Positions 1-58,421 of a stretch of DNA of 64,000 nt are shown one piece after another. This stretch comes from a virus. Lineage: Duplodnaviria; Heunggongvirae; Uroviricota; Caudoviricetes. Position 1 is the first letter of the stretch, and each line of letters begins with the position of its first letter. Below the pieces are notes generated by a model. It was not told the DNA's origin, searched no databases, and saw nothing but the letters and a program-made list of their open reading frames with translations. The stretch lies in the IMG/VR virus record IMGVR_UViG_2915331061_000005; one strand, written 5' to 3'. A program made the position numbers and the translations under genes.

Positions 1-114
1 GATAGCCGTCCATGCAGTAAAAGGCACTCCCCGTGCCGACAAAAATTCTGCCGCCGTTGTTGATTACCTCACAATGACCGCAGTTCTTGATCTGGGCAGC
101 CAGTGCAGAAAGTT

Positions 115-300
115 TCATCTTTTCACCACCTCCACGTCAGGATCACCGTCTTCGATGAACTCAGGATAGGCACTCTTTGCGCGTTTCCTCGCTTCGCGGA
201 CTGCCGCATTCGCATTTTTTGCTTCCAGCTTATACGGCAGATACATATTTTCTTTCGTATAGCTGTCAATGCCAAACAACATGATGCTGAACTTCGCCAT
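115..300 (-). CDS. Small conserved hypothetical protein (MAKFSIMLFGIDSYTK...), paralog at 53163..53369
   Basis: Internal ATG of ORF 115..411 preceded by GAAGGGAG RBS. The 61-aa product is ~60 % identical to the copy in module B. Confidence 0.5.
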   Translation of the reverse strand: MAKFSIMLFGIDSYTKENMYLPYKLEAKNANAAVREARKRAKSAYPEFIEDGDPDVEVVKR

Positions 301-380
301 CGTCTGCTCCCTTCTGTTTATTTTTCTTTCGGTGGGCATTTCCGGGCTTGAACCGGGTGGGGCCTGTCCCATGCTCATAT

Positions 381-410
381 AAAAAGAAGCCGCCGCGCCG
401 GGCGGCTCCA
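381..410 (-). terminator. Intrinsic terminator hairpin (GGAGCCGCCCGGCGCGGCGGCTTC then U-tract) upstream of the small gene
   Basis: GC-rich inverted repeat followed by TTTTTATAT on the minus strand. Conserved at 53431..53459. Confidence 0.4.
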
Positions 411-424
411 CGCTTTACCTATGC

Positions 425-652
425 TTATCTTCCCATGGGTTGATATCTATTTGCGCACTCCATATTCGTGCAAAATCGTTCTGTTCCAATGATTTTCAGC
501 GGTTTCCCGCAATACGGGCAAAACGTTGGCTTAGGTTGCGGTTGGCCTTCTCCCTCTAAACTCTGTTGCAACCGATAGAGTGCGCACATGAACGATCCCG
601 GCTGCACATACAGTACACATCGTTCCCTTGCTCTGCAAATATCGCAATTCAT
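425..652 (-). CDS. Zinc-ribbon protein (two CxxC pairs)
   Basis: 75-aa ORF with CDIC...CPYCG...C..C motifs. Confidence 0.45.
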   Translation of the reverse strand: MNCDICRARERCVLYVQPGSFMCALYRLQQSLEGEGQPQPKPTFCPYCGKPLKIIGTERFCTNMECANRYQPMGR

Positions 653-656
653 TTTT

Positions 657-839
657 TTACCTCATCAAATACAGCCAGCAGAATTTCACCAGCCCCGCCG
701 GGACAAGCACAGCCGCCACCAGCCAGAGAACAGCTGCCGCGATCACCAGCGCCGCGAAAATTCCGGTCGCTTCTATCTTTCCGATTTTTACTTTATGATC
801 CATGTTTTTAGCCATTTCCCCTATCTTTGAAGTCCACAA
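657..839 (-). CDS. Small membrane protein
   Basis: 60-aa ORF with one strongly hydrophobic helix (IFAALVIAAAVLWLVAAVLV). Confidence 0.35.
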   Translation of the reverse strand: MWTSKIGEMAKNMDHKVKIGKIEATGIFAALVIAAAVLWLVAAVLVPAGLVKFCWLYLMR

Positions 840-1065
840 ATCGATCTTCTTCGTCTATCATGAACTCGTCAGCGTTCCACACTTCTTTGCAATCCAGACA
901 GTATGCTGTCTGACATTCCATCGGACCCGATGTGCTTCTTGTTCTTTTCTTTAGGAGTTTTCCACGCTTTCCAAGTAACTGGTCATAAGAAAACATCCAG
1001 TGATCCGACACTATAATCTGCCCACCGCAAACCGGGCAGGCTTTGCATTCAGTTCCCTCTCTCAT
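808..1065 (-). CDS. Zinc-ribbon/zinc-finger protein
   Basis: CKACPVCG ... CLDCKEVW cysteine pairs. Confidence 0.45.
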   Translation of the reverse strand: MREGTECKACPVCGGQIIVSDHWMFSYDQLLGKRGKLLKKRTRSTSGPMECQTAYCLDCKEVWNADEFMIDEEDRFVDFKDRGNG

Positions 1066-1066
1066 T

Positions 1067-1606
1067 TTATTTTCCCTTTATGATCCAGACCCGGTGTTCG
1101 CCGTATCCTTCCCAGTTCAGTGCATCCTCATGGCTGCCAGAAACAGCCACGTCCAGCTTATTGCCTTGAATGGCTGCACCGCGATCCTGCACAACGCGCA
1201 CGCCAATGTTTTCTATGTACAGAACGGTTCCAAACGGCAGGCTTTCATCTGCTGCAACAGTCAGCCCCGCCGTCACCGGTGCGCCGCTGGCGGTGATTCC
1301 GTGTCCTTCTCCGCAAATGTGCGGGTATTCTTCTGTGCAGTACGCCGTACACAGAAATTCCCCGGCATATTCCTTTGTCAGTCCATCTGGCAGGGCATTT
1401 TCATTGGCGGCAGTCTGTAACTGGTCGATAACTTCTTCATCCTGAATTGCTCTGTCCTGCCAGTTTGCCAGACGGGCGGAATAGATAATACGCTGCCCTT
1501 CCAGATCATCAATGCGTCTCTGCATCACCGCAACTTTTGTGGCATTGACAATTTCCGCCGCAAAGAACAGTACCAGAATCGCCTTTGTTTTCGCTGTCAT
1601 TTCCAA
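1067..1606 (-). CDS. 3D-domain (MltA/YuiC-like) cell-wall binding/lytic protein with N-terminal signal/TM
   Basis: TAYCTEEYPHICGEGHGITASG...VAADESLPFGTVLYIENIGVRVVQDRGAAIQGNKLDV matches the 3D (Asp-rich) domain. Paralog at 55645..56181. Confidence 0.65.
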   Translation of the reverse strand: MEMTAKTKAILVLFFAAEIVNATKVAVMQRRIDDLEGQRIIYSARLANWQDRAIQDEEVIDQLQTAANENALPDGLTKEYAGEFLCTAYCTEEYPHICGEGHGITASGAPVTAGLTVAADESLPFGTVLYIENIGVRVVQDRGAAIQGNKLDVAVSGSHEDALNWEGYGEHRVWIIKGK

Positions 1607-3117
1607 ACCTCCTTTTCGTCACCGCGATTGGAAACTCTTCTATTTCACTTGCCCAGCGTGCCGTGCCTTTCCCGTATGTAGTCTCCCACACTAGAGGAAA
1701 GCCACCAATTCCGTCAAACAAGCTACCCAGCGTTGCGCCCGCCGGAAGGTATTGCTTCATTTTCTGGGCGATCCAGAACCATTGCGGAAGCGCGATGCTG
1801 TTTCCCAGTGCCTTATAACGCGGGCTGTCTGCCGCCTTGTGCTTTTTCCCTTTGGTGTCCGTCCATTCTCCAATGTCCGTCCACCCGTCCGGGTATCCTT
1901 GCAGGCGCTCGCACTCTGTCGGGGTCAACCTGCGCACGATCCATTGTATCGTCTTTTCTATCACCGCTGCGTCGTGTCTTTCCGCGTACAATGTGCCCAT
2001 TTTTTCCACTTCGTATCCAATTCCGTTCGCCTTTGCTCCTGCTTTATAGGCAAAGCCAGCGCATAGCCGTTCGCGTCGATACTCCAAAGCTACCGCCTGT
2101 GGGTCGTGCATTGTGGTTAACGTGCCGGATGTTTCTTTGCTTGCGGAAACATTCGTTTGCCCATTCCCAACGCCATAGCTCGCCGTCAGGATAGCGGTAT
2201 AGTCCGTCACTCTGCTTTCGTGATCCCCGGTAATGGTCGGCACTGTCTTGCCATCACCGTTTCCCCGTGCATCAAAGACCTTATACGCTACTGCTGGACG
2301 GTCAACAGTGTTCAGCGTGTAGCTCTGGTTTTCCTTCACGCCGGAACCATTTGCGCCGGCCGTTTCAGAGCGATCAATAATGTTTCCTGCCAGGCAATAG
2401 ACCGGCTGAAAAAGGGTCTGATCCTGTAGCGTCGAAAGTGTTCCTGTTTTTTCGGTCTGCACCAGTGCACCTTTGCCGCCCCCGGCACAGCCTGACCGGA
2501 TTTTCAAGGTGTAGGCTTGCCCCCCCTGCTGGCCCACCATTCGATCATTTCCAGTAGGGCGGTTTCCAGCAGTTCTTGTAGCTTCTTGCCACGTCGGGAT
2601 GCTCTGGTCAGGATGCCCCGGCAAGCTTTCGCGCTCAAATAGTATTTCTCCGGCACGTCCACCTGCAAAATCCACGACAAGAGCGATACGTTTTCTTCTC
2701 TGGGGCACTCCCCAATATTGAGCGTCAAGCTGTCGCCAAGCCAGAGACCATCCATTTCCGGCGATTGCTCCGGCTTTGCTCCATCTGCCCCCCCCTCGGA
2801 GGTCTAGGAATTGAAGCGTCTGGTTCTTCCACGCGGGCAAGTTCTTCCAGCACGGCGCGGAAGTCTTCTCCGCCGTTTGAACTGAACGCTCCGGGAACAT
2901 TTTCCCAAATAACGACAACTGGATAACTTCCATGTGTCGCCCTCCTCATTTCTTTGATGATCCGAACTGCTTCCATGAACAATCCCGACCGTTCTCCCGC
3001 AAGTCCCGCCCGCCGCCCAGCAATGGAAAGGTCTTGGCATGGGCTGCCGAAGGTGATGCAATACACGGGTTCTATCTGGTCGCCATGTATCTTTGTGATA
3101 TCTCCAAGGTGGATCAC
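1509..3117 (-). CDS. DNA (cytosine-5)-methyltransferase, circularly permuted (motif order IV-VI-VIII-TRD-IX-X-I-II), split into two frames at a G8 tract (plus-strand C8 at 2768..2775)
   Basis: ORF 2725..3117 has GDI...FGSPCQDLSIAG (motifs III/IV) and ENVPG (VI). ORF 1509..2933 has YWGVPQRRKRIALV (VIII), RLTPTECERLQGYPDGWT (IX), ALGNSIALP (X), then LFDGIGGF (I) and ASEIEEFPIAV (II) near its C-terminus. The frames differ by one nucleotide at the homopolymer. Confidence 0.7.
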
Positions 3118-3431
3118 TTCTTGTCACCCCACCTTGCTTTATGGGGTAAGTCCTGGCACGGGCTGCTGCCGATCAAATAATCCGCCACAATTTCGCCATC
3201 TTCTGCCCACTTCATTCCCAGAAAATCCGCAACGCCGAAACTGCCGTCTTCGCAGCAATGCGTTTCTTGTACAAGCGGTTGGTTTTCAAGTTTCTTCAAC
3301 GGCCCAATTCCACTGGCGGTAAACGCCGCATTTGCCGTTGCGGTCCAGGCTGTCTCTTTATCACCAGTTCCGCCGTTGGTGAAGGTCTTCCCGCACAGCC
3401 TGCACCTGAACGTCATGTAGTACCCTTTCAT
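3114..3431 (-). CDS. Zinc-ribbon protein
   Basis: Internal start MKGYYMTFRCRLCGK...; CRLC and HCC motifs. ATGA overlap with the MTase start. Confidence 0.4.
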   Translation of the reverse strand: MKGYYMTFRCRLCGKTFTNGGTGDKETAWTATANAAFTASGIGPLKKLENQPLVQETHCCEDGSFGVADFLGMKWAEDGEIVADYLIGSSPCQDLPHKARWGDKK

Positions 3432-3461
3432 TGTTCTTCTCCCTTCTGCTTTTTGTTCTTG

Positions 3462-3538
3462 CACGGGTGGCCGGAATCGAACCGGCTTGCCTGCCGCTGG
3501 GGGATCAGGACGGCAGGCAACTTCCTTACTACACCCGC
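3462..3538 (-). ncRNA. tRNA-like structured element (7-bp acceptor-like stem, 9-bp hairpin with 14-nt loop, canonical T-arm GCCGG-TTCGATT-CCGGC); non-canonical, no D-arm
   Basis: Minus strand GCGGGTG...TGCCTGCCG-TCCTGATCCCCCAG-CGGCAGGCA-A-GCCGGTTCGATTCCGGC-CACCCGT-G. Conserved copy at 57773..57849. Confidence 0.35.
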
Positions 3539-3539
3539 A

Positions 3540-3577
3540 TATCAAAACCCACCGCGCAAGAGAGGTGGCGCGGTGGG
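3540..3577 (-). terminator. Intrinsic terminator (CCACCGCGC-loop-GCGCGGTGG then GTTTTGATAT) immediately 5' of the tRNA-like element
   Basis: Perfect 9-bp stem plus U-tract on the minus strand. Conserved, with a G-U pair, at 57856..57890. Confidence 0.4.
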
Positions 3578-3955
3578 GCGACCCGTTGCGGTCGGGTCTG
3601 CTGCCTTTTGCCTGGGCAATTGGGACAGGGCGTTTCTGCGCTCACGCTGCGACGTGCCGTTCAGCTTATGCCGGACTGCCATGCGGGCACGGTTTAGGAA
3701 ATACGGACAGGTCGGATTTTCACCGCCTTATACGGAAGGTTAGCGCTGCTTTTTCAGCATCCGTATTTCCCTGCCAGTTTTGGAAGATGAAACCTTGACC
3801 GGCTTCCATGGAATATGCGAGCAAAGCGGCGCAGGCGGGGTTCGACCCCGCTCCCAGCGTGCTGCGGGCACACCCTGCGCCATATAAAAGCCGCCCGGCC
3901 TTCACACATGACAACTGCTGCTTATCTGCTGAAAACTCTGGCCGGGCGGCTACAT

Positions 3956-4402
3956 TCAGTTTGTTTTGTGGTGCGTCACACTGTATTCTTCGCATTCCTT
4001 GTTGTACCCGTCGCAGGGCGCGCACCGCTGCGACGTGATACGGAACGTGTGTTGGCACTGTTCGCCCTTCTTCGGGGCTGGATGGGTCTTTGTGGACCTC
4101 GCAAGATTTTTCATTTCTTTTGCTTTATATAAATAAGTAGCAGTGCCCAGCGGCACCGTGTTCAGATGGAGCTTTGGTTGAACCCTGCGTGTCCGGTAAC
4201 GGCGCTTGTTGTGAATGGCCCATCCGGGCGTTTCCGGCGGCAAAAGCGTGTATGTCAAATCGTCCAGACCTTCACAGAAGCGTTTGACGCTCTCTGTGAT
4301 TTTCTCAAACGAGTCTATAATTATCTGGCGCATTTTCATCAAATCGCCCACCGGATCTTCGGACCATTCCCGCGTGCCGTGCTCAGGATCGGTTACTATC
4401 AT
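3956..4402 (-). CDS. Hypothetical protein; C-terminal 52 aa is a conserved Cys-rich module (EQCQHTF..RCAPC.GY..C) that occurs as a separate small gene at 58248..58421
   Basis: ORF 3956..4429. Its C-terminal segment aligns with the module-B small protein. Confidence 0.4.
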   Translation of the reverse strand: MIVTDPEHGTREWSEDPVGDLMKMRQIIIDSFEKITESVKRFCEGLDDLTYTLLPPETPGWAIHNKRRYRTRRVQPKLHLNTVPLGTATYLYKAKEMKNLARSTKTHPAPKKGEQCQHTFRITSQRCAPCDGYNKECEEYSVTHHKTN

Positions 4403-4547
4403 GCGCTTCCTTTTCCTTCCGCGCCGCAAACTGTGCAGCGCCCTCCGGGTATCTGGTGGGCTTCCCGGTCAGGTCTGCCGTTGCGGCAAACTCCCGCAGG
4501 ATATGCAGCAGAGGGACAGCAACAACGCCGGTTACTTTCACGCTCAT
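4383..4547 (-). CDS. Small conserved hypothetical (KPTRYPEGAAQF motif), paralog at 58995..59147
   Basis: Internal start MSVKVTG... of ORF 4383..4595. RPTRYPAGRAEF is conserved in copy B. Confidence 0.35.
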   Translation of the reverse strand: MSVKVTGVVAVPLLHILREFAATADLTGKPTRYPEGAAQFAARKEKEAHDSNRS

Positions 4548-4551
4548 AGGT

Positions 4552-5040
4552 TCAGCCCCCGTTCTTGTCTTTCCGTGCCTGCTTGTCCACCGCACTGATG
4601 ATGTGCTTTACCACTTCTTCCATGGGCATATCACCTGCCGGGACCTTGAACATCACGCCCTGCGCCTGACCCGGATTTTCCTTTGCCTGCTTCATTGCAT
4701 CTGCAATAATTTTCTCCATCATGCTGTCCACGTCGCCGGGCTGGCTTGCGGAAGGATCATTCCGCTTTTCTGCCGTGGCGGCAGTGGCAACAGGTTCAGC
4801 GGCAGGTGCGTTGCCATACTCGCGCTTCCATATGGATTCAAACCGTTCGGCGATGATTGCTTTCGCTATGGTCATGACGGCTTCTGCCTTCTTGCGGTTG
4901 CCGTTGCTGGCATCTGCAACGGTGTGTGCAACTGCTATTGCCGCCATAAAAACTTGATCCGTACTGTCTCCCATTGTTTCCACGCTGAGCGAAGTTTCGC
5001 TCTTCATCTTCACGACCAGTTCTGCAATGTTCTTGCCCAT
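4552..5040 (-). CDS. Hypothetical protein
   Basis: 162-aa ORF, acidic, no recognisable motif. Confidence 0.45.
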   Translation of the reverse strand: MGKNIAELVVKMKSETSLSVETMGDSTDQVFMAAIAVAHTVADASNGNRKKAEAVMTIAKAIIAERFESIWKREYGNAPAAEPVATAATAEKRNDPSASQPGDVDSMMEKIIADAMKQAKENPGQAQGVMFKVPAGDMPMEEVVKHIISAVDKQARKDKNGG

Positions 5041-5054
5041 AACACGACTTCCTT

Positions 5055-5357
5055 TCAGGACGGCGCATTTCCGCCCACGTCACTAGTACCAGTGGCTTCA
5101 TACGAATATTCTTTCAGCTCAATGTCCTGTACGCTGTCTTCATCCAACCACTTATTGATGATGTTAAACAGGTATTGCTTGCGCATCTGAATAATGTTCT
5201 TGTTGGTGGTGCCCAGAGAAAACATCTTGATAGCAACGCTCGCTACAAGCCGGGTCAGTTCATCTCCCTGCCCGTTCATTTCCACATAGACACTTTTCTT
5301 CTCTGGCGCATCATGGCCCGTGAAAAACGCCAGAATATGCGTTTTGCTCTTATCCAT
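5055..5357 (-). CDS. Hypothetical protein (AF.HG...NGQGD family, homolog of 59526..59875)
   Basis: Start MDKSKTHILAFFTGHD with AAGGGAGACG RBS. Shares the pattern ILAFFTGHD...NGQGDEL with B copy YAFIHGE...GNGLDLL. Confidence 0.45.
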   Translation of the reverse strand: MDKSKTHILAFFTGHDAPEKKSVYVEMNGQGDELTRLVASVAIKMFSLGTTNKNIIQMRKQYLFNIINKWLDEDSVQDIELKEYSYEATGTSDVGGNAPS

Positions 5358-5370
5358 GTAGTCGTCTCCC

Positions 5371-5796
5371 TTACGAAGGCAGGCCGTCGTCTGCATCCTG
5401 CGGTCTGCTGCCGGTGCCCGCCCGGTCGTCCACAGCAGCGCCAGAGCAGGTAGCACAGTCACCGAAGCACCCGGTGTTCGTGTTCTCTTTCAGCTTTGCC
5501 ATCGCTTGCGCAATAGCGGTTGCCTTTTCGCCGTGCCACTGGACGCTATGGTCTTTGCCATATTCGATCTCGCTGTTGCGGGCGTTCCATGCATCATCCA
5601 GCATACCGTCCAGCTGGTTCTTCATGTCATCCAGCATCTTAATCGCCCGTTCCTTTTCCGGGCTGGACTGCACGATTACGTCAGCCAGCGCCATAGCCGC
5701 GATCTGTGCGATATCTCCCGCGTGGCCGTCAACCTGAATTTCGACATCATCGCCATCCAGAGCGACAGCCAAATAGGCATCCCATCTTTTCTCCAT
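5371..5796 (-). CDS. Hypothetical protein
   Basis: 141-aa ORF with RBS AAAGGACAAAAG. Confidence 0.45.
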   Translation of the reverse strand: MEKRWDAYLAVALDGDDVEIQVDGHAGDIAQIAAMALADVIVQSSPEKERAIKMLDDMKNQLDGMLDDAWNARNSEIEYGKDHSVQWHGEKATAIAQAMAKLKENTNTGCFGDCATCSGAAVDDRAGTGSRPQDADDGLPS

Positions 5797-5830
5797 CTTT
5801 TGTCCTTTCTATTGGTGTGAATCTTCGGTC

Positions 5831-5894
5831 TGGTGGAGCATCCCGGAATCGAACCGGTTCCGGGGCTACACCCCCGGACGCGCCTGCATACTCC
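5831..5894 (-). ncRNA. Minimal tRNA-like element ending in CTCCACCA (acceptor GGAGTAT/ATGCTCC, 7-bp hairpin, T-arm ACCGG-TTCGATT-CCGGG, discriminator A, CCA)
   Basis: Minus strand GGAGTATGCAGGCGCG-TCCGGGG-GTGTAG-CCCCGGA-ACCGGTTCGATTCCGGG-ATGCTCC-A-CCA. Only 64 nt, with no D-arm and no canonical anticodon loop. Confidence 0.35.
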
Positions 5895-5895
5895 A

Positions 5896-5927
5896 TAAAA
5901 CGGGCGGCTTGACAGGCTGCCGCCCAC
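5896..5927 (-). terminator. Intrinsic terminator (GGGCGGC-loop-GCCGCCC then GTTTTAT) immediately 5' of the tRNA-like element
   Basis: 7-bp GC stem plus U-tract. Same terminator-then-tRNA-like architecture as 3462..3577. Confidence 0.4.
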
Positions 5928-6066
5928 CCATGCGGGCCGCCCTATGTATTCTTTCAGTCCTCAGTAGGTAGGACCCCCGACTGTCGGAATGGCCGGGGCA
6001 GCCGTCTGCGTCCCCACGTTTCCGGCTGCATGGTGGGCGTGATTCGGTGCGCCCAGACCTTTGCGG

Positions 6067-6312
6067 CTAATCTCGTGGGTCTCTGCCGCCGATCAGCACG
6101 CCGCCCAGCAGTAGGATCAGCCACACCAACGCCACCACGCCCATGCCAAACTCCGTTATTACTTTGACCCAGTACAGCAGCGCTGTCAGGATGACGGCCA
6201 GAACCAGCGTTCCCGCCAGAACGGCCACCAGAATAATCAGGTTCATTTCGCTTTTCGCCCTTTCTTCTGCTTGTGCTGCCGCGTCTGCCGGGACTTCCGG
6301 CGGTCTTTGCAC
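6067..6312 (-). CDS. Small membrane protein (two TM helices)
   Basis: LIILVAVLAGTLVLAVILTALLYW...VVALVWLILLLGGVLIGG. Confidence 0.45.
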   Translation of the reverse strand: MQRPPEVPADAAAQAEERAKSEMNLIILVAVLAGTLVLAVILTALLYWVKVITEFGMGVVALVWLILLLGGVLIGGRDPRD

Positions 6313-6363
6313 GGGCGGCAGTACAGCGTGGTCAGCGTGTCGAACCGGCGGTACGCCCCGCCG

Positions 6364-6711
6364 TCATGCCTTTTCTTGCTGTTGTTCATGTTCCTTCCGC
6401 TTCCTGTTCCTCTCGATCAGATTATCCAGCTCTTCCCAGGCCTTCTGCTCTTTCAGCAGTTCGTCTAAGCGCCAGTACCCGTATGACTTGCCCGCTGCGT
6501 CCGCCTTGCGCACATCGGCGGTCAGCGGATCAGCGGGCGGGTTCTTATACTTCTTGCGTACCCGTTCCGCAAATCGTTCTGCGCAAACGGGGCACCGCCG
6601 GGCGGTGACATTATTTGAAAGGATCACCGCCCCGCAGTCAACGCAGGTCTTGATTATCACCGGTCCATTCCCCCTTGTGGTTCTGGATGTAGCGCCGGAT
6701 ATCCTCCGCAA
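6364..6711 (-). CDS. Zinc-ribbon protein; conserved C-terminal DVRKADAAGKSYGYWRLDE motif (paralog 60039..60224)
   Basis: CVDCG...CPVC. The C-terminal region aligns with the B-copy protein. Confidence 0.45.
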   Translation of the reverse strand: MRRISGATSRTTRGNGPVIIKTCVDCGAVILSNNVTARRCPVCAERFAERVRKKYKNPPADPLTADVRKADAAGKSYGYWRLDELLKEQKAWEELDNLIERNRKRKEHEQQQEKA

Positions 6712-6798
6712 ACTTTTTGCGCTTCCTGCGCTCTATCACTTCAAAGATGGTGTACATCGCCGCACACACCACGACGACCGCCACCGCCGCCGCGCCCA

Positions 6799-7044
6799 TC
6801 ATCTGGCACGCTCCCGCTTCAGCTGCTTTTCCAGCTCTAAGCGTTCGCACTCCCAGCGATACCGCCGGACACGCTCTTCCAGCAGGTTCACCTTCTGTTC
6901 CAGCTTCGTGGTGTAGCTGATGCTGCACCAGCCCCATGTCAGCAGGGCAGCAATGGTGACGATCAGTGCAAACCACGCCACCGGCTCCCGTGCGGCTGCC
7001 TGGGCGGCATCCACGCCGTAGAACCACATAATAAAGTTCCTCAT
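6799..7044 (-). CDS. Membrane plus coiled-coil small protein
   Basis: N-terminal TM helix, C-terminal LEERVRRYRWECERLELEKQLKRERAR. RBS AAGGAGAG. Confidence 0.45.
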   Translation of the reverse strand: MRNFIMWFYGVDAAQAAAREPVAWFALIVTIAALLTWGWCSISYTTKLEQKVNLLEERVRRYRWECERLELEKQLKRERAR

Positions 7045-7200
7045 GCCTGTTCGCTCTCCTTCTTGTCTTCCGGTGCCTGTGCACCAGCCTTTGCCAGCTT
7101 CATGCCCTGAACCACGCCTGCGATATAGGTCGCTGCTTCCGGGTTCTCTGCCAGCAGTTCGGCCATTTCCTTGCTCTGGCTCTTGTCTTTCTCGCTCATG
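7041..7200 (-). CDS. Unlisted small ORF (MSEKDKSQSKEMAELLAENPEAATYIAGVVQGMKLAKAGAQAPEDKKESEQA), stop overlapping the next start (ATGA)
   Basis: RBS AAAGGAGCG eight nt upstream. Translationally coupled to 6799..7044. Confidence 0.3.
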
Positions 7201-7238
7201 CTCTCACGCTCCTTTGTTGTCTGCTCCTTCCCGTCGTG

Positions 7239-7490
7239 CTATAATATGGTGCCATTGGTGATAAGCAGCGCCGCCGGGAAGTCCGGGTCGTAGTTGAACT
7301 CGATCCGGGCTTTTGCTTTGTGGTCAATAAATCTCACGACTGCCCCGATTTCTCCCAACTTCTGAAACGCTTCTTCCTTGCGCCACACGCCGATTCCTAT
7401 GCCGTTGCAATGAATCTCTTCCGGCTTGTAGCCGTAGTGTTTCAGCACTTCGTCCACGTCGAGTTCATCAAATGCTTTTTTGTGGATCAC
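7239..7490 (-). CDS. Conserved hypothetical (DEVLKHYGYKPEE...KAKARIEFNYDPDFPAALLIT); paralogs at 60523..60810 and 61062..61372
   Basis: >70 % identity to the C-terminal half of the B-copy proteins. GTG start after GGGGGTGAAG. Confidence 0.5.
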   Translation of the reverse strand: MIHKKAFDELDVDEVLKHYGYKPEEIHCNGIGIGVWRKEEAFQKLGEIGAVVRFIDHKAKARIEFNYDPDFPAALLITNGTIL

Positions 7491-7574
7491 ACTTCTTCAC
7501 CCCCTTTTCTGTTGCTCTCGTGTTGCCCATCTCCTCCCGCCGTGGTACAATAGCCACAGAAAGGAGGTGTAAAA

Positions 7575-7943
7575 ATGAGCCTGTCGTTAACTAAAAAGGC
7601 TATCCTTGCCGGATACGCTCATTCCATTTCTCTTAAGGGATTTGAAACAAATCGCCTGTTTCTCGTCACCGCCGCTGGCATCATCAGCGGTATTCCTGTG
7701 TTTGATGAAAAAACAGACAATTTGAATGTTACCGTTGCACAGACGCTCAACTCTGCGGCTCTTGAAGCTGTTTCTAAGGCTGATAGCCCCGATGAAGAGC
7801 GTTCCGCTGGAAGCGGCGAGTTCATTCTGTTAAGGGATGCTCGGTTTGAAGCCACAACTCCCGTTGTGAACTTCCCCATTCTGACCGTGTTCTACGATCA
7901 GATCATTGCCGTGAGCCTTGGTACTGACCCCACCAATCGTTAA
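7575..7943 (+). CDS. Hypothetical protein
   Basis: Strong RBS AAAGGAGG 8 nt upstream, preceded by -10-like TACAAT. Confidence 0.45.
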   Translation: MSLSLTKKAILAGYAHSISLKGFETNRLFLVTAAGIISGIPVFDEKTDNLNVTVAQTLNSAALEAVSKADSPDEERSAGSGEFILLRDARFEATTPVVNFPILTVFYDQIIAVSLGTDPTNR

Positions 7944-8033
7944 GCTCTCGACCTTTTGCCGTCCTTGTACCGCTAATACAAGGGCGGCAATTTCTTTTGC
8001 GCTGCCAGTGATTACAATTTTCATCTCCTTCAC
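7830..8033 (-). CDS. Small hypothetical protein
   Basis: 67-aa ORF. Shares a duplicated 30-nt leader with 7239..7490. Overlaps the 3' end of 7575..7943. Confidence 0.3.
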   Translation of the reverse strand: MKEMKIVITGSAKEIAALVLAVQGRQKVESLTIGGVSTKAHGNDLIVEHGQNGEVHNGSCGFKPSIP

Positions 8034-8082
8034 CCCCCTTCTGTTGCTCTCGTGTTCGCTAAGTTAACTTTACGAGTTCATT

Positions 8083-8099
8083 ATAGTTTATCAAACTAT
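8083..8099. promoter_or_regulatory. Candidate operator: 7-bp inverted repeat ATAGTTT-ATC-AAACTAT upstream of the repressor promoter
   Basis: Perfect palindrome ~30 bp upstream of the -35 box. Confidence 0.35.
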
Positions 8100-8129
8100 C
8101 ATTGTCAACCCCTTTTTCTTCTTTTTTCG

Positions 8130-8158
8130 TTGACTTAATTAACGCGCCGTGCTATTAT
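8130..8158 (+). promoter_or_regulatory. Sigma-70-type promoter (TTGACT, 17 nt, TATTAT) for the XRE repressor gene
   Basis: Near-consensus boxes with 17-nt spacer, ~27 nt before ATG 8185 and RBS AAGGAGGTG. Confidence 0.55.
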
Positions 8159-8184
8159 TATAGTAAAGGAGGTGAAACAAAGGT

Positions 8185-8667
8185 ATGAAAGATAGAATCC
8201 GGGAGGTTCGAGAGCATTTTGGACTTAGTATGGAGAAGTTTGGTTCCCGCATTGGCATAGGCAAAGCGTCCATTAGTCTTTTGGAAAGCGGTAAGAACAA
8301 TCCATCCGTTCAGACCATTACTCTTATCTGCCGGGAGTTCGGTGTAAACGAACAGTGGCTCCGCACTGGTGAGGGCGAAATGCTTGAGCAGACCCGGGCA
8401 AGCGTGCTGGACAGGCTGTCCACGGAATACGATCTGAGCAGGGAGCAGCGTTCCGTAATTGAAGCGTTCCTTGATCTGGACCCGCAGGAACGGGACGTGA
8501 TTCTGAAGTATGTGCATAACGTTTTTGACCGTTCCGCAGAATCCGCAGCCCAGAGCATAGCAATACCCGATAAGGAAGCCCGGCGCATTGCCGAGAGCGA
8601 CGAGTTCAAAGCCCTTCGGGAAAAGAACGAGCCGCCGGAGAGCGAATCGTGTACTACCGCCGGTTAG
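8185..8667 (+). CDS. XRE-family HTH transcriptional repressor (CI-like)
   Basis: N-terminal HTH_XRE motif (LSMEKFGSRIGIGKASISLLESGKNNPSVQTITLICREFGVNEQWL). Sits next to the integrase at the prophage edge. Confidence 0.8.
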   Translation: MKDRIREVREHFGLSMEKFGSRIGIGKASISLLESGKNNPSVQTITLICREFGVNEQWLRTGEGEMLEQTRASVLDRLSTEYDLSREQRSVIEAFLDLDPQERDVILKYVHNVFDRSAESAAQSIAIPDKEARRIAESDEFKALREKNEPPESESCTTAG

Positions 8668-8723
8668 TTCTTCAACGTGCCGCTTCTGAGTGGCTGAAGA
8701 ATCACCAGTAAATCCGCGCAAAA

Positions 8724-8762
8724 AGAAAAAGCCCACCGGGGGACAGGCCCGGTAGGCTTTTT
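8724..8762. terminator. Bidirectional intrinsic terminator (A-tract, 13-bp stem, T-tract)
   Basis: AAAAAGCCCACCGGGggacagGCCCGGTAGGCTTTTT. Confidence 0.45.
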
Positions 8763-8797
8763 CGTGTATGCAAATTATTTTATGGAGGTATTATCTT

Positions 8798-9265
8798 ATG
8801 AGAAAAATTTCTGTCTTTGCTGTTTCCTGTGCCGCCGTTCTCCTTCTTTCCGCTTGTGGCAGTTCTTCCAGTTCCGTGCCTGCATCTAGCGGCGCTTCGT
8901 CTGCTGTGTCCAGTTCTTCGGAACCGGTTTCTTCCGTTTCCGTTTCATCTTCTGCATCGGTCGATGATGCGTTTTCCGATTTTGAAGCCGCGCTTTCCGA
9001 GAACGGTATTGCTTATACGGAAAAGGTTCGTATGGCTGCTGAACTTATCGGCGGCGTAGACGGTTACAAATACAAAACACCCGATTATAACATTGAGGTG
9101 TATACTTTCGATCCTTCGTCCGACGCTTATCTGACTACCGAAAAGGACGGCACCGTTATCATGGAAGGCTTTGGCTCATTCCCTGCTTATGCTCACAACG
9201 GCATGGTTCTTGTGCAGACCGACAATCTTCCCCAGGAAGTGATTGACCTGTTTGATGCCATGTAA
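8798..9265 (+). CDS. Lipoprotein (signal peptide with lipobox LLSAC, Ser-rich linker)
   Basis: MRKISVFAVSCAAVLLLSACGSSSSS... RBS GGAGG. Confidence 0.6.
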   Translation: MRKISVFAVSCAAVLLLSACGSSSSSVPASSGASSAVSSSSEPVSSVSVSSSASVDDAFSDFEAALSENGIAYTEKVRMAAELIGGVDGYKYKTPDYNIEVYTFDPSSDAYLTTEKDGTVIMEGFGSFPAYAHNGMVLVQTDNLPQEVIDLFDAM

Positions 9266-9301
9266 AGCTCCACATTGTCTTTCTGCAAAGGTGGTGTCCC
9301 T

Positions 9302-10912
9302 ATGAAGAAACAACCAACCGGCGGCAAGCGTCTTGTTGCCTACTACCGCTACAGCGGCGGCAGTCATCAAACGGAGCAGTCCATTGAGGGGCAGCGCCGG
9401 GACTGCGAAACTTACGCCCGTATCCATGGCATGGTCATCCTGCATGAATACATTGACCGGCATATCTCCGGCAAGACGGACGACCGCCCGGAGTTTCAGC
9501 AGATGATCGCCGATGCTGGGAAAGGGATGTTCGACTATGTGATTTGCTGGAAAACAGACCGCATTGCCCGCTCCCGGTATGACAGCATCGTCTATAAAAA
9601 GAAGCTCCGTGACAACGGCGTGGAGCTACTCTATGCCGCAGAAGCCAACGTTGAAGGCTCCGGCGGTATCATCGTGGAGGGCTTGATGGAAGCCCTTGCC
9701 GAATACTACTCTGCCGAACTGGCCGAGAAGGTGCGGCGCGGTATGCGGGAAAGTGCCTTGAAGGGCAAGGCTATCGGCAGTTCCCGTCCCCTTGGTCTTA
9801 CCGTGGACAAGGATAAGAAGTATATCATCGACCCCGCCGGGGCTGCCGCCGTGCGGTATATCTTTGAGCAGTACGCCGCCGGGGCTGCGTCCTCTGCTAT
9901 CGTTGCACACCTGAATGAACAGGGCTTGTGCACCAGCCGGGGCAACCCGTTCAATAAGTCCAGCGTGGTGCGTATCATCCAAAACGAGGTGTATCGGGGC
10001 GTGTATGTCAGCCCCAAGTTTGACGTGCGCATTGAGGGCGCAGTACCGGCCATTATTGACGACGATCTATGGGAGAGGGCGCAGAAGATGTTTATTCGTA
10101 ACCGTCAGAGCCGTTCCCCGCGCAATGACCGCGCGGACTACATCCTGTCCGGCAAGCTGTTTTGTGGCGAGTGCGGCACTGCCATGAAGGGCGTGTCCGG
10201 CCACAGCAGCAACGGCGAGGTGTACTTCTACTACAGCTGTCCGTGCAAGGACTGCCACCGCCGGAACATCCCGAAGGACGAGCTGGAAGGTCTGGTAATC
10301 CGCACCGTCTGTAACGACGTGTTGCAGCCGGACGTGATGGATCGCATTGCAGACAGTGTGATCGAAGCCCAGACCGCCGAACTGAACCAGCCAAACCCGG
10401 AGAAGGAAGCATTGCAGCACGAGCTTGCCGACGTGCAGCGCAAGGCAAAGAATCTGCTGTCTGCATTGGAGAACGGCACCGCCGGGGCTATGCTGACCAA
10501 CCGCCTTGCCGAACTGGAACAGCAGGCCAACACGCTGTCCTATCAGCTGTCGTCGCTGGAATCTGAGCCGAAGTTCCCGGTCTTCTCCAAGGAAGAAGTT
10601 CTGTACCTGCTGGAACAGTTCCTCATTGCCCCCAGCGAGAAAACCAAGGCATACCGCCGCCGCCTAATCGACACCTTTGTCAGCAAGATCGAGGTGAGCA
10701 ACACGGAACTGACCATCTATTTCAACATTGCCGAGGAAGATTGTGGAAAAATGAAAAAAGCTCCCCAGTCGAACCAGCCCGAAGGCTGTTCGACTGAGAA
10801 GCAAATGGTCCACCTTGCACATCAACAAGCGAACTATTCCCTTTATGCGGCTTCCGGCTACTTTTCACTGGTTGAACACCAATTTTCGGCCCGTTTGTGG
10901 CGCACCGCATAA
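9302..10912 (+). CDS. Large serine recombinase (phage integrase)
   Basis: Resolvase catalytic domain (VAYYRYSGG...EGQRRDC), recombinase domain, zinc ribbon (CGECG...CPCKDC) and C-terminal coiled coil. ~65 % identical to 62456..64000. Confidence 0.85.
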   Translation: MKKQPTGGKRLVAYYRYSGGSHQTEQSIEGQRRDCETYARIHGMVILHEYIDRHISGKTDDRPEFQQMIADAGKGMFDYVICWKTDRIARSRYDSIVYKKKLRDNGVELLYAAEANVEGSGGIIVEGLMEALAEYYSAELAEKVRRGMRESALKGKAIGSSRPLGLTVDKDKKYIIDPAGAAAVRYIFEQYAAGAASSAIVAHLNEQGLCTSRGNPFNKSSVVRIIQNEVYRGVYVSPKFDVRIEGAVPAIIDDDLWERAQKMFIRNRQSRSPRNDRADYILSGKLFCGECGTAMKGVSGHSSNGEVYFYYSCPCKDCHRRNIPKDELEGLVIRTVCNDVLQPDVMDRIADSVIEAQTAELNQPNPEKEALQHELADVQRKAKNLLSALENGTAGAMLTNRLAELEQQANTLSYQLSSLESEPKFPVFSKEEVLYLLEQFLIAPSEKTKAYRRRLIDTFVSKIEVSNTELTIYFNIAEEDCGKMKKAPQSNQPEGCSTEKQMVHLAHQQANYSLYAASGYFSLVEHQFSARLWRTA

Positions 10913-15193: not shown

Positions 15194-15363
15194 AATGACC
15201 CTCCGCTGGTTCGCGTTGCGGTAGTGGGCTGCATCCGGCAGGGATGGCCCACCTCAGCGGGATGTATTTATCACTTGCCTGCATCGGCAAGCGACAGGAT
15301 GCGGTTTCCTTTGATGGGCGCACTGCTTTCAGCTTATGCCTACTCGTCACACGGTTCCATCAG

Positions 15364-15484
15364 AGCGGGGCGAACACCATAGGAGTTGTTGTACCAGTTG
15401 TTGTTGTTGGAGCCATCGGTGTTGACGTTCCAGACGTTGTTGTTATTGTTGGTGTTCGGAGAGCGCAGCCACCAAATGGCAGCG
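15364..15484 (-). repeat. DGR template repeat TR (AAC-codon-rich)
   Basis: Minus strand is rich in AAC (plus strand gttgttgttgtt). Matches VR1 and VR2 except at A positions. Lies 170 nt upstream of the RT. Confidence 0.8.
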
Positions 15485-41161: not shown

Positions 41162-41321
41162 CAGCTCGCAAGATGGGATTTGAACAGCTCATCTTGCAAT
41201 GATTTTACCAGTTTTCGCCGGTAAAGTCAAGCGGACACTTTGCAAGGGCTGCACCGCTCAACAAAGCAACCCATGCCCACCACCCCGCCGGGGTGATTCA
41301 AAAGAAAAGAGGTTTTGAAGT

Positions 41322-41711
41322 ATGACCACATTCGACCGCAAAATAAACCAGATCGCCGCCCGCCACGGGTGGAGCATCGAGAAACAGCCCCGCGCCGCTG
41401 TCCCTTGCTACATCATCGCCGCCCCAACTTATGAGGATACCGGGAAGATCGTTGCCGTTCTGAACCGCTGCAAGGGCTTGCACCATGAAACATTGACCCC
41501 GATTCACTATGAATCGTGGGCGGTCAAGGTGTATGACGCCGGACAGATCGCCGCATATCGGGAACGCGAACGGCAAAAAGCCGCCCTTGTTGATGCTTTC
41601 TATATGGCATTGAAAGCCAACGGCGGCGACCAGAACGCCGCGAAAGCTGCCCAGCGTGAAAAGGCGGTGCAATGGAACGCCGTCGAAGTGTTCAATGAAA
41701 TTTACGCATGA
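41322..41711 (+). CDS. Hypothetical early protein
   Basis: 129-aa ORF with RBS. Confidence 0.45.
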   Translation: MTTFDRKINQIAARHGWSIEKQPRAAVPCYIIAAPTYEDTGKIVAVLNRCKGLHHETLTPIHYESWAVKVYDAGQIAAYRERERQKAALVDAFYMALKANGGDQNAAKAAQREKAVQWNAVEVFNEIYA

Positions 41712-41824
41712 CCCCCGGATACCTTGACGGGCCGCACCACGAAAAGCGACCCGATCCCACGCCCCGACAATAGCCGGGGAAAAGCACGAAAAGCCACACC
41801 ACGAAACGAAAAGGAGAAACAACC

Positions 41825-42169: not shown

Positions 42170-42187
42170 ACGAAAGGAGCGCACAAC

Positions 42188-42400: not shown

Positions 42401-42504
42401 TCCCCGCCGGATACCTTGACGGGCCGCACCGAAAAGCGACCCGATCCCATCCACCCGGCCCCGCCGGGAAGAACCACAACAAAAATTGAAAGGAAGTATT
42501 TACC

Positions 42505-54690: not shown

Positions 54691-54691
54691 T

Positions 54692-57736: not shown

Positions 57737-57772
57737 TCTTTTTACCTCCTATTGATTTTTTCATAGTTCTTA

Positions 57773-57849
57773 CACGGGTGGCCGGAATCGAACCGGCTTG
57801 CCTGCCGATGGGGGATCAGAACGGCGGACAACTTCCTTGCTACACCCGC
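57773..57849 (-). ncRNA. tRNA-like structured element, second copy
   Basis: ~90 % identical to 3462..3538. Differences in the long hairpin partly preserve pairing. Upstream terminator at 57856..57890. Confidence 0.35.
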
Positions 57850-58247
57850 ATATCAGAACCCACCGCGCAAGAGAGCAGCGCGGCGGGCCGGTCTTGGTCA
57901 AGCAGACCTTCCACCTTTGGCTTGGGTGGATCGGACAAGGCATTTCTTCGCTCATGCGGCGTGCACGCCCAAATCGGTTTCCGCACCGTCATGCGGGCGT
58001 AGCTTGGCAGAAAGGCAGCGTGGTCTTGCACCAGCTTACACGGGAGAAACGCCGCCATACGGCACCCTCTGCCCCTGTCGGTGCGTCAAATTATGGACAA
58101 ACGCACCGGCTTCCATGAATACCTGCTGCAAAGCGGCGCGGACGGGGTGTGGCCCCGCTGGCGGTTTCCCCCTGCGTCGTTTCAAGGTTCAGCCCCGCGC
58201 CATATAAAAGCCGCCGCGCTGACGCGGTGCGTGGCGGCTCATTCATA

Positions 58248-58421
58248 CCTTAGATGTTTTTGTATCAGCAGCACCCTTGGTTTTTTCGTAACGTTCACAG
58301 TTCGTATCATAGCCACTGCACGGTGCACACCGTTTGTGGGTGATCTCGAACGTGTGCCTGCACTGTTCATTTTTGTGCAGGTCTTTTTCGGTGGGACTTC
58401 TGTTATGTACCTTCATTTACA
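58248..58421 (-). CDS. Small Cys-rich protein (EQCRHTFEITHKRCAPCSGY..C)
   Basis: 57 aa. Homologous to the C-terminus of 3956..4402. Confidence 0.35.

What the first reader, a model, noticed from the sequence alone, without database searches (positions are those of the whole stretch)
3462..3577. Conserved tRNA-like structured element directly after an intrinsic terminator (two copies)
On the minus strand a perfect 9-bp terminator hairpin plus U-tract is followed immediately by a 77-nt element. That element has a 7-bp acceptor-like stem (GCGGGTG/CACCCGT), a canonical T-arm (GCCGG-TTCGATT-CCGGC) and a long 9-bp hairpin in place of the anticodon arm, but no D-arm. The copy at 57773..57890 is ~90 % identical. 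It is not a canonical tRNA but is clearly under constraint. Possibilities are a processed regulatory RNA, an RNase P/Z substrate acting as a 3' processing signal, or a phage attachment-site remnant.
Basis: seen in the sequence. Interest (0 to 1): 0.6.

Follow-up and report, generated by a model that had tools for sequence, protein, structure and literature searches.

The report
tRNA-like end of phage RNA
The 77-base tRNA-shaped element is real, but it is only the last domain of a roughly 430-base, highly folded noncoding RNA that Faecalibacterium gut phages carry among their early genes and that matches no family in the Rfam RNA catalogue.

Summary
Both copies (3462-3538 and 57773-57849, minus strand) fold into a 7-bp acceptor stem stacked on a 5-bp T arm with a canonical T loop. 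They also have a long hairpin with a C-rich loop and no D stem.

Across 26 distinct relatives, 4 of 7 acceptor pairs and 2 of 5 T-stem pairs show compensatory changes, so the tRNA-like minihelix is under selection. It is not a free-standing gene. It is the 3' domain of a 368-487-nt structured RNA (window 3885-3458 and 58205-57769) with at least ten further covarying helices.

The RNA lies in the early region of FP_Toutatis-like temperate Faecalibacterium phages. The window holds two such prophages in tandem. I found it in 65 IMG/VR contigs and at least 115 human-gut metagenome contigs.

ARAGORN calls no tRNA or tmRNA. Rfam 15 gives nothing near threshold (tRNA clan 18 bits or less against a gathering score of 47; no ROOL or GOLLD hit).

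The att-site idea is rejected. Function is unknown. My best inference is that the module is a built-in handle for RNase P and RNase Z, which cut the RNA out of the early transcript.

The parts
3458..3885 (-). Copy A of the whole structured RNA (428 nt): helices P1 to P8 plus the tRNA-like 3' domain and the CAAG trailer
   Evidence: nhmmer with the family profile covers 3885-3458 at 467 bits. Alignments A2 and A4 show the covarying helices.
3462..3538 (-). Copy A tRNA-like domain (77 nt). Acceptor 5' strand 3538-3532; D-region 3531-3519, unpaired and containing GG; long hairpin 3518-3489 with loop 3509-3498 (CCUGAUCCCCCA); linker AA; T arm 3486-3470; acceptor 3' strand 3469-3463; discriminator G at 3462
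   Evidence: Sequence. MFE fold z = -5.1. Acceptor and T-stem covariation.
3539..3547 (-). Leader UUUUGAUAU between P8 and G1. The UAU directly before G1 is kept in nearly all subtypes
3548..3577 (-).
   Evidence: Fold z = -4.8. The stem covaries between subtypes. The scan does not call it a terminator.
3580..3881 (-). 5' body of copy A. P1 3881-3875/3834-3828; P1b 3851-3846/3840-3835; P2 3803-3798/3778-3773; P3 3770-3761/3706-3697 with P3a and P3b inside; P4 3691-3686/3658-3653; P5 3647-3645/3632-3630 with conserved loop UGAGCGCAGAAA at 3644-3633; P6 3619-3615/3605-3601; P7 3598-3593/3585-3580
   Evidence: Helix positions. Pair counts. Independent RNAalifold consensus.
3807..3811 (-). seg1 (CCAUG in the P1/P2 junction), candidate pseudoknot partner of seg2
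   Evidence: The base before CAUG here and the base after CAUG in seg2 are C/G in 26 distinct RNAs and U/A in 80, with no exception.
3679..3683 (-). seg2 (CAUGG in the P4 loop), candidate pseudoknot partner of seg1. It is also 8-nt complementary to the leader plus acceptor 5' strand
3456..3461 (-). Conserved 3' trailer CAAGAA directly after the discriminator. It is never CCA
   Evidence: Present in nearly every complete 3' domain of every subtype, although the downstream genes differ; rare point variants CAAGGA and UAAGA (copy B) occur.
57769..58205 (-). Copy B of the whole structured RNA (437 nt; FP_Toutatis-like subtype B)
   Evidence: nhmmer 430 bits. Alignment A2.
57773..57849 (-). Copy B tRNA-like domain (77 nt)
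57857..57889 (-). Copy B helix P8 (12 bp including G.U), followed by the tail UUCUGAUAU
   Evidence: Not called a terminator.
3956..4114 (-). Small Cys-rich (CxxC ... CxPCDGYN..C) ORF directly upstream of copy A, then a hairpin and a U run at 3950-3886
   Evidence: Translation. The same ORF precedes the RNA in the subtype A, B, C and F relatives whose upstream flank I read. No Pfam, PHROG or NCBIfam hit.
58243..58416 (-). The same small Cys-rich ORF upstream of copy B

Best explanation
The element is the 3'-terminal tRNA-like domain of a large (368-487 nt) structured noncoding RNA, a family absent from Rfam 15. The family is encoded in the early region of FP_Toutatis-like temperate Faecalibacterium phages.

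Shown here:
- The RNA sense is the window's minus strand, the same as the flanking genes.
- The 5' body has helices P1 to P8 and conserved loops.
- The 3' domain is an acceptor/T-arm minihelix (7 + 5 bp, canonical T loop). It also has a GG-containing D-region and an arm with an enlarged, usually C-rich loop.

Inferred mechanism:
- The RNA is transcribed as part of the early polycistronic transcript. No promoter was found next to it.
- The tRNA-shaped module recruits the host's identity-blind tRNA maturation enzymes.
- RNase P cuts after the conserved UAU leader, leaving the 5' body ending in the stable P8 hairpin.
- RNase Z or another nuclease cuts after the discriminator, ahead of the conserved non-CCA trailer CAAGAA.
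- This frees the noncoding RNA from the downstream mRNA and gives it defined, protected ends.
- The working molecule is then the 5' body, the tRNA-shaped piece with its C-rich loop, or both. What it acts on is unknown.
For: The structure is real:
- 90 proposed pairs are 92% paired, and 16 pairs have changes on both sides, against 4 or fewer in slid controls.
- RNAalifold on 26 diverse members independently predicts 77 pairs, 40 of them with compensatory changes. These include P1, P1a, P2, P4, P5, P6, P7, P8, the acceptor and the T stem.
- In the minihelix, 99.4% of cells are paired. 4 of 7 acceptor pairs and 2 of 5 T-stem pairs have compensatory changes, against 1 or fewer in slid controls.

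Strand: G.U outnumbers A.C by 125 to 29 in the whole structure and 23 to 2 in the minihelix.

Spread:
- FP_Toutatis and phage Lelie carry it in an unannotated gap of about 500 nt.
- It occurs in 65 IMG/VR contigs and at least 115 gut metagenome contigs, giving 106 distinct sequences.

For processing rather than decoding:
- The features RNase P needs are the invariant ones: a 12-bp acceptor/T stack, the T loop, the D-region GG and U at position -1.
- The discriminator varies (G or A), as do pairs 1-72 and 2-71. The 'anticodon' arm changes length, sequence and loop between subtypes.
- The trailer is conserved although at least five different genes follow it.
- There is no sigma-70-like promoter nearby, and the P8 U-tract is not conserved.
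- From general knowledge: tRNA-like modules act as RNase P/Z end-forming signals in MALAT1-mascRNA, and RNase P processes tRNA-containing operon transcripts.
Against: - There are no expression or end-mapping data, so every cleavage step is inference.
- The near-invariance of the D-region, the hairpin loop and the CAAGAA trailer within subtypes is more than RNase P or RNase Z should require. It hints at another partner.
- U(-1) can pair with R73, giving an 8-bp stem. That could shift or weaken RNase P cleavage.
- All members come from one group of related phages, so few independent lineages underlie the covariation counts.
- An alternative 8-nt pairing between the P4 loop and the leader plus acceptor 5' strand stays possible in nearly all members and is unexplained.
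Confidence: 0.45

Rival explanations
1. The domain stays attached and works as a tRNA mimic, as in tmRNA or bacterial Y RNA (YrlA). It would dock the large RNA onto tRNA-binding host machinery: the ribosome, EF-Tu, the CCA-adding enzyme or an aminoacyl-tRNA synthetase. Alternatively it acts as a decoy that soaks up tRNA-targeting anti-phage nucleases or toxins.
For: - The architecture (acceptor, unpaired D loop with GG, long helix, short linker, T arm) is that of the tRNA-like domain of tmRNA, as I know it.
- Conservation of the D-region, hairpin loop and trailer exceeds what processing needs.
- GOLLD RNAs sometimes carry covalently linked tRNAs (PMC12286853).
Against: - There is no G3:U70 and no tag reading frame, and ARAGORN calls no tmRNA.
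- CCA is not encoded.
- The discriminator and first acceptor pairs vary between subtypes, which argues against one conserved synthetase identity.
- No partner protein is known. The neighbouring HD-domain protein is absent from subtype A phages.
Confidence: 0.25
2. The whole region is a cis-acting leader (attenuator or riboswitch-like) for the downstream small ORF and C5 DNA methylase genes. P8 would be a regulated terminator, and the P4-loop / acceptor 5' strand pairing would be the switch.
For: - The RNA always lies upstream of a C5 methylase operon.
- Copy A's P8 has a U-tract.
- An alternative 8-nt pairing is retained at 7-8 of 8 positions in nearly all of the 106 RNAs.
Against: - The U-tract is lost in subtypes B, E and F, and the scan calls no terminator.
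- The alternative pairing has no compensatory change, whereas the acceptor stem it competes with does.
- A canonical T arm has no role in an attenuator.
- All carriers are related phages, so shared gene order proves little.
Confidence: 0.12
3. It is a DNA-level element, such as a replication or single-strand origin or a packaging site, whose hairpins form in single-stranded DNA.
For: - The neighbouring HD-domain protein has weak hits to HD relaxases (MobH, TraI_2).
- I found no replication genes among the 23 early-region ORFs I checked against the protein libraries.
Against: - The canonical tRNA T loop and the 7 + 5 bp minihelix geometry are RNA-recognition features.
- There are no iterons or AT-rich stretch.
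- The HD protein is missing from subtype A phages, which keep the element.
- The strand-specific G.U excess matches the transcribed strand.
Confidence: 0.05
4. It is a decaying phage tRNA gene, or a leftover of integration into a host tRNA gene, with no present function.
For: - The acceptor strand GCGGGUG and the T arm resemble real tRNAs. The 23-nt 3' half is identical to that of tRNA-Leu(CAA) genes of Alphaproteobacteria.
- Some relatives have lost the domain: L187/L201, and L237.
Against: - Compensatory changes keep both stems paired (99.4%) across subtypes.
- The window copies are 94% identical while the flanks are 71-87%.
- No Faecalibacterium or other Firmicute tRNA shares the 3' half.
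- The element is 5.5 kb from the serine recombinase and contains both acceptor strands.
Confidence: 0.03

Closest known systems
GOLLD and ROOL RNAs (large ornate phage and prophage noncoding RNAs)
   Same: They are phage-encoded, several hundred nucleotides long and multi-helix with pseudoknots, and their function is unknown. They are typically found near tRNA islands, and GOLLD sometimes has tRNAs covalently linked (PMC12286853).
   Different: There is no sequence or structure homology. The Rfam 15 models give no hit even at E <= 10 on 1-kb slices. Here the linked element is a fixed, non-canonical tRNA mimic at the 3' end, not a real tRNA. The host range seen so far is one group of Faecalibacterium phages.
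tRNA-like domain of tmRNA
   Same: Both have a 7-bp acceptor stacked on a T arm, an unpaired D loop with GG, a long helix where the anticodon or variable arm would be, and a short linker to the T arm.
   Different: There is no G3:U70 alanine identity, no mRNA-like tag region and no encoded CCA. The big RNA lies 5' of a complete mini-tRNA rather than inside helix 2. ARAGORN and the Rfam tmRNA models do not call it.
MALAT1 / MEN-beta mascRNA-type tRNA-like 3' end-forming modules (eukaryotic)
   Same: A tRNA-like fold sits directly 3' of a stable structure at the end of a long noncoding RNA. RNase P then RNase Z cleavage is the mechanism proposed here.
   Different: mascRNA is eukaryotic and has been shown experimentally. 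Here the context is bacterial and phage, cleavage is untested, and the upstream stabiliser is a hairpin rather than a triple helix.
Bacterial Y RNA (YrlA) tRNA mimic
   Same: It is a noncoding RNA with a tRNA-like module (T arm, acceptor-like stem), also seen in some phages.
   Different: In YrlA the acceptor-like stem is closed and the molecule opens at the anticodon side into a Ro-binding stem, and the gene sits next to rsr. None of these features is seen here. I did not search the window for an rsr (TROVE-domain) gene.
Canonical and class II tRNAs (tRNA-Leu, tRNA-Sec)
   Same: The acceptor strand GCGGGUG and the T arm are identical to some tRNA-Leu genes. The best sub-threshold Rfam hit is tRNA-Sec, because U(-1):R73 gives an 8 + 5 bp stack.
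   Different: There is no 7-nt anticodon loop, and the D stem is absent or non-canonical. ARAGORN is negative, and the scores of 16-18 bits fall far below the gathering score of 47.

Membership tests
Canonical tRNA (Rfam clan CL00001; ARAGORN) | Called by a tRNA finder, or reaches the covariance-model gathering score | tested here: not met
   ARAGORN finds 0 genes in the window and in 7 related loci. The best clan hit is tRNA-Sec at 16-18 bits against a gathering score of 47.
Canonical tRNA (Rfam clan CL00001; ARAGORN) | 7-bp acceptor stem stacked on a 5-bp T stem with a UUCRAnY T loop | tested here: met
   Sequence. 99.4% paired, with compensatory changes in 6 of 12 pairs.
Canonical tRNA (Rfam clan CL00001; ARAGORN) | 3-4 bp D stem, and a 5-bp anticodon stem with a 7-nt loop | tested here: not met
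   The window copies have a 13-nt unpaired D-region and a 9-bp stem with a 12-nt loop. Other subtypes have 5-8 bp stems with 12-14 nt loops and a non-canonical long D arm.
tmRNA | tRNA-like domain plus a tag reading frame; G3:U70; called by ARAGORN or Rfam | tested here: not met
   The pair is G3:C70 in 25 of the 26 aligned subtype representatives. There is no ARAGORN tmRNA. The only hit is tmRNA_permuted at 16 bits against 47, covering just the T arm and acceptor.
ROOL / GOLLD / other large Rfam RNAs | Match to the family covariance model | tested here: not met
   There is no hit at gathering score over the window. There is none at E <= 10 on the two 1-kb regions and none at E <= 1 on four divergent loci.
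Intrinsic (Rho-independent) terminator (helix P8) | GC-rich hairpin followed directly by a conserved U run | tested here: inconclusive
   The hairpin is strong and conserved. The tail is UUUUGAUAU in subtype A but UUCUGAUAU, UCUUAUAU and UGUCUAUUAU in subtypes B, E and F. The scan calls neither window copy.
Phage attP / tRNA-gene integration remnant | Identity to the 3' part of a host tRNA or tmRNA gene, and position next to the integrase | tested here: not met
   The 23-nt 3' half occurs in 37 of 185,579 species genomes, none of them Firmicutes. All six hits that ARAGORN could call (of eight loci checked) are tRNA-Leu. The integrases are serine recombinases about 5.5 kb away. There is no tRNA gene in the window.
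RNase P / RNase Z substrate (functional class) | Cleavage at the 5' edge of the acceptor and after the discriminator | not testable with these tools
   Only the recognition features are seen: the acceptor/T stack, the T loop, the D-region GG, U at -1 and a non-CCA trailer.

The most novel reading that the evidence does not exclude
A new class of large ornate phage RNA permanently fused to a tRNA mimic. The intact ~430-nt molecule would use its acceptor/T-arm domain, after CCA addition, to enter a tRNA-binding site of the host. Candidates are the ribosome, EF-Tu, a synthetase, or a tRNA-targeting defence nuclease or toxin. The folded 5' body would carry out a second activity there. In effect this would be a phage counterpart of tmRNA or Y RNA with a different payload.
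Probability: 0.2. Interest if true: 0.85.

Novelty: new variant of a known kind. Interest (0 to 1): 0.62.

Why it matters
Faecalibacterium is one of the most abundant and health-associated human gut bacteria, and its temperate phages are common in gut metagenomes.

Large, elaborately folded bacterial and phage RNAs are rare, and each class has opened new biology: ribozymes, RNA nanocages, ribonucleoprotein machines. This one is well defined, with more than ten covarying helices and a candidate pseudoknot. It is absent from Rfam 15. It carries a built-in tRNA mimic, which gives an immediate experimental handle: RNase P and RNase Z cleavage, CCA addition, and pull-downs.

If the tRNA-like end is a processing signal, it would be a bacterial and phage parallel to the MALAT1-mascRNA mechanism. 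If it is a mimic used in trans, it would bear on phage takeover of translation or evasion of tRNA-targeting defences.

Tried and rejected
1. ARAGORN on the window and on divergent relatives found no tRNA or tmRNA.
2. Rfam at gathering score and in permissive E-value mode gave only chance-level hits.
3. The degenerate scan AGGAAGTT..GGTTCGANTCC of IMG/VR returned only unrelated real tRNAs, so it was useless for finding relatives.
4. The att-site or host-tRNA origin is rejected.
5. The HD-domain protein as an obligatory partner is rejected. Subtype A phages have an unrelated upstream gene.
6. I searched the window for antisense targets of the C-rich hairpin loop and of the conserved P5 loop. Only self matches turned up.
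7. RNAalifold's first suggestion, the P4 loop paired with the acceptor 5' strand, is kept only as an unexplained alternative. It has no compensatory change, while the competing acceptor stem has four.
8. The coding-potential check by stop-free runs was uninformative in this GC-rich DNA (76-145 codons open somewhere). The case against coding rests on three points: indels that are not multiples of three, the compensatory changes, and the absence of annotated CDS in FP_Toutatis and Lelie.
9. The literature searches found no description of this RNA. One further search failed on a syntax error. The one large phage structured-RNA catalogue (PMC10690425) has no searchable supplement.
10. The small Cys-rich ORF upstream has no Pfam, PHROG or NCBIfam match.

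Full report
**1. The observation**

On the minus strand, copy A reads as follows:
- CCCACCGCGC-CACCUCUCUU-GCGCGGUGGG (3577-3548)
- UUUUGAUAU (3547-3539)
- GCGGGUG UAGUAAGGAAGUU GCCUGCCGU CCUGAUCCCCCA GCGGCAGGC AA GCCGG UUCGAUU CCGGC CACCCGU G (3538-3462)
- CAAGAA, about 20 nt further on a ribosome-binding site, then an ATG at 3431

Copy B has the same layout at 57889-57773.

The unconstrained minimum-energy fold of both 77-mers is acceptor stem, long hairpin and T arm. Copy A has z = -5.1 and copy B z = -2.3. The two copies are 94% identical over 110 nt. The coding DNA around them is 71-87% identical. Profile searches find exactly two copies in the window.

**2. It is not a known tRNA, tmRNA or Rfam family**

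ARAGORN finds nothing in the window. At gathering scores Rfam 15 finds only six RAGATH-5 elements elsewhere in the window. In permissive mode the element gives only tRNA-Sec at 16-18 bits, against a gathering score of 47. That hit comes from the T arm and acceptor alone.

**3. The element is the end of something larger**

Aligning the two copies shows patchy conservation for about 310 nt upstream of the "terminator". It begins right after the hairpin and U run that follow a small Cys-rich ORF.

BLAST places the region in an unannotated gap of about 500 nt in Faecalibacterium phages FP_Toutatis (5787-6236) and Lelie. The gap lies between that small ORF and a small ORF followed by C5 DNA methylase genes.

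Exact-pattern scans brought in 38, then 65, IMG/VR contigs. Neighbours of a related HD-domain protein yielded more divergent members. In all there are 106 distinct full-length sequences of 368-487 nt.

**4. Structure of the whole RNA**

I wrote down helices from the first alignment and counted them on 22 distinct sequences:
- 90 pairs are 92% paired.
- 16 pairs have changes on both sides, against 1-4 when the 3' partners are slid.

RNAalifold on 26 sequences from the main subtypes (the most divergent member, L246, is not included) independently returns P1, P1a, P1b, P2, P3, P4 (with an inner hairpin), P5, P6, P7, P8, the acceptor stem and the T stem. That is 77 pairs, 40 of them with compensatory changes.

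Examples read directly from the sequences:

| Helix | Variants seen |
|---|---|
| P6 | UUGCC/GGCAG, CCACC/GGUGG, UUGCU/AGCAA, CCGCC/GGCGG |
| P7 | GACCCG/CGGGUC, GGUCU/AGACC |
| P8 | CCCACCGCGC/GCGCGGUGGG, CCGCCGCCUCUCC/GGGAGGCGGCGG, GCCGCUCCC/GGGAGCGGC |

Several unpaired stretches are conserved:
- AUYCAUGGAAGCC, between P1 and P2
- UGCAUG, in the P4 loop
- UGAGCGMAGAAA, the P5 loop
- CCUUGUCC
- CARGCYAAA, the P6 loop

The base before CAUG in the first stretch and the base after CAUG in the P4 loop are C/G in 26 distinct RNAs and U/A in 80, with no exception. This suggests a 5-bp pseudoknot. It probably reflects few independent events.

Subtype F lacks the roughly 90-nt P3 domain and has a short hairpin instead, so P3 is dispensable.

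G.U pairs outnumber A.C by 125 to 29. The functional strand is therefore the one transcribed with the flanking genes.

**5. The tRNA-like domain across subtypes**

At least six versions of the 3' domain exist:

| Subtype | Example | Length | Features |
|---|---|---|---|
| A/B/C | the two window copies (A and B) | 77 nt | 13-nt unpaired D-region, 9-bp hairpin, G73 |
| F | L204 | 75 nt | GCGGAUG ... GUCGG UUCGAUC CCGAC CGUCCGC A |
| E | L185 | 88 nt | GUGGGUG ... GUUGG UUCGACU CCAAC CGCCCAC A |
| (unnamed) | L184 | 91 nt | GCGGGCG ... GCUGG UUCAAUU CCAAC CGCCCGC A; long D-arm-like hairpin |
| (unnamed) | L178 | 90 nt | ACGGGUG ... GUUGG UUCGAUU CCAGC CACCCGU G (A1:U72, G73); long D-arm-like hairpin |
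| G | L246 | 79 nt | most divergent |

On 26 distinct domains the acceptor is 100% paired and the T stem 98.5%. Compensatory changes occur in 4 of 7 acceptor pairs and 2 of 5 T-stem pairs. Slid controls are 35-50% paired with one such pair or none.

The arm next to the T arm keeps a 5-9 bp stem of unrelated sequence and a 12-14 nt loop, usually with a run of C. In E, L184 and L178 an extended D-arm-like hairpin makes a four-arm cloverleaf.

The parts that stay constant are:
- the T loop (UUCRAnn)
- a GG in the D-region
- UAU directly before G1
- a purine discriminator followed by CAAGA(A), never CCA, even though at least five different genes follow

None of the checked variants is called by ARAGORN or reaches Rfam thresholds.

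**6. The "terminator"**

P8 is a conserved, covarying helix. The tail after it is UUUUGAUAU only in subtype A. It is UUCUGAUAU in B, UCUUAUAU in E and UGUCUAUUAU in F. The consensus scan calls neither window copy a terminator and finds no sigma-70-type promoter nearby. I therefore read P8 as part of the RNA. At most it is a leaky terminator in some subtypes.

**7. Context**

The window holds two related prophages in tandem: 100-10300 resembles 53150-63500. Each has a large serine recombinase, at 9275-10912 and from 62456 to the end of the window.

The RNA lies about 5.5 kb from each recombinase, among early genes on the same strand. The small Cys-rich ORF is always directly upstream. A C5 methylase follows, directly or after one small ORF. 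The HD-domain protein upstream in subtype B phages is not present in subtype A.

The 23-nt T-arm plus acceptor 3' half occurs in no Faecalibacterium or other Firmicute genome among 185,579 species representatives. It occurs only in Alphaproteobacteria and other non-Firmicutes, and the hits that ARAGORN could call are tRNA-Leu genes. An att-site or host-tRNA remnant is thus excluded.

**8. Mechanism (inference)**

The features that stay constant are the ones the identity-blind tRNA maturation enzymes read: the 12-bp acceptor/T stack, the T-loop/GG elbow, U at -1, and a non-CCA trailer. The features that synthetases and the ribosome read all vary: the discriminator, the first acceptor pairs and the "anticodon" arm.

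Together with the lack of a dedicated promoter or a conserved terminator, this favours a processing handle. RNase P would cut at UAU|G, leaving the 5' body ending in P8. RNase Z or another nuclease would cut after R73. I give this 0.45.

Two observations count against it being the whole story. Conservation of the D-region, the C-rich loop and the CAAGAA trailer is stronger than processing needs. U(-1) can also pair with R73.

The main rival (0.25) is a tRNA mimic that stays attached and docks the RNA on host tRNA-binding machinery, or decoys tRNA-targeting defences. A cis-regulatory leader (0.12), a DNA-level element (0.05) and a dead tRNA gene (0.03) fit less well.

**9. Comparison with known systems and novelty**

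In kind it resembles GOLLD and ROOL. Those are large ornate phage RNAs found near tRNA islands, and GOLLD sometimes has linked tRNAs (PMC12286853). Their covariance models do not match it.

The 3' domain has the layout of the tmRNA tRNA-like domain. It lacks G3:U70, a tag frame and encoded CCA.

The proposed end-forming role parallels MALAT1-mascRNA.

The literature searches found no description of it. It could still be among the 10,006 unnamed candidates of PMC10690425, which I could not check.

I rate it a new variant of a known kind. It is a new family of large structured phage RNA, distinguished by a fixed, non-canonical tRNA mimic at its 3' end.

**10. Caveats**

- All members come from one group of related gut phages, and some are mosaics (L227).
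- The covariation counts rest on few independent lineages.
- There are no expression data.
- The function of the 5' body is unknown.

Noticed in passing
window 41231-45124 (+ strand): There are six RAGATH-5 (RF02685) elements at 58-68 bits (gathering score 50). They lie between + strand ORFs in a block with positive AT skew, inside an otherwise minus-strand phage genome.
   Followed up: no
window 100-10300 and 53150-63500; recombinases at 9275-10912 (+) and 62456-64000 (+): The window holds two related prophages in tandem (71-87% identical segments about 53-54.5 kb apart, the size of FP_Toutatis). Each has a large serine recombinase.
   Followed up: partly
window 3117-2725 with 2933-1509; 57539-57144 with 57364-56129 (minus strand): The C5 DNA methylase downstream of the RNA is split into two overlapping ORFs in both copies. 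It is also annotated as two CDS in FP_Toutatis. This could be a frameshift, a two-part enzyme or a pseudogene.
   Followed up: no
window 60760-60826 and 61323-61389; also 13330-13455, 15359-15484 and 51974-52099: There is a 67-nt direct repeat (93% identical) in the region between the early genes and the repressor/recombinase end. There is also a 126-nt repeat in three copies (90% and 75% identical).
   Followed up: no
L187/L201, L174, L237, L227: Some relatives carry broken or mosaic RNAs. L187/L201 break off inside the D-region and continue into a membrane-protein ORF. L174 breaks off after P1. L237 has the T arm deleted. L227 joins a subtype B body to a subtype F 3' part.
   Followed up: partly
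L293 (metagenome contig), 3' domain: This single variant has an acceptor 5' strand of GCAGGUG. That gives an A3.C70 mismatch in the acceptor but a Watson-Crick pair with the P4-loop segment CCUGCAUG. It may be a sequencing error, or a hint that the alternative pairing matters.
   Followed up: no
window 58425-58991 (minus strand): An HD-domain protein lies next to copy B. It has weak similarity to YhaM and to HD relaxases (MobH, TraI_2). The gene in that position beside copy A encodes an unrelated protein.
   Followed up: partly
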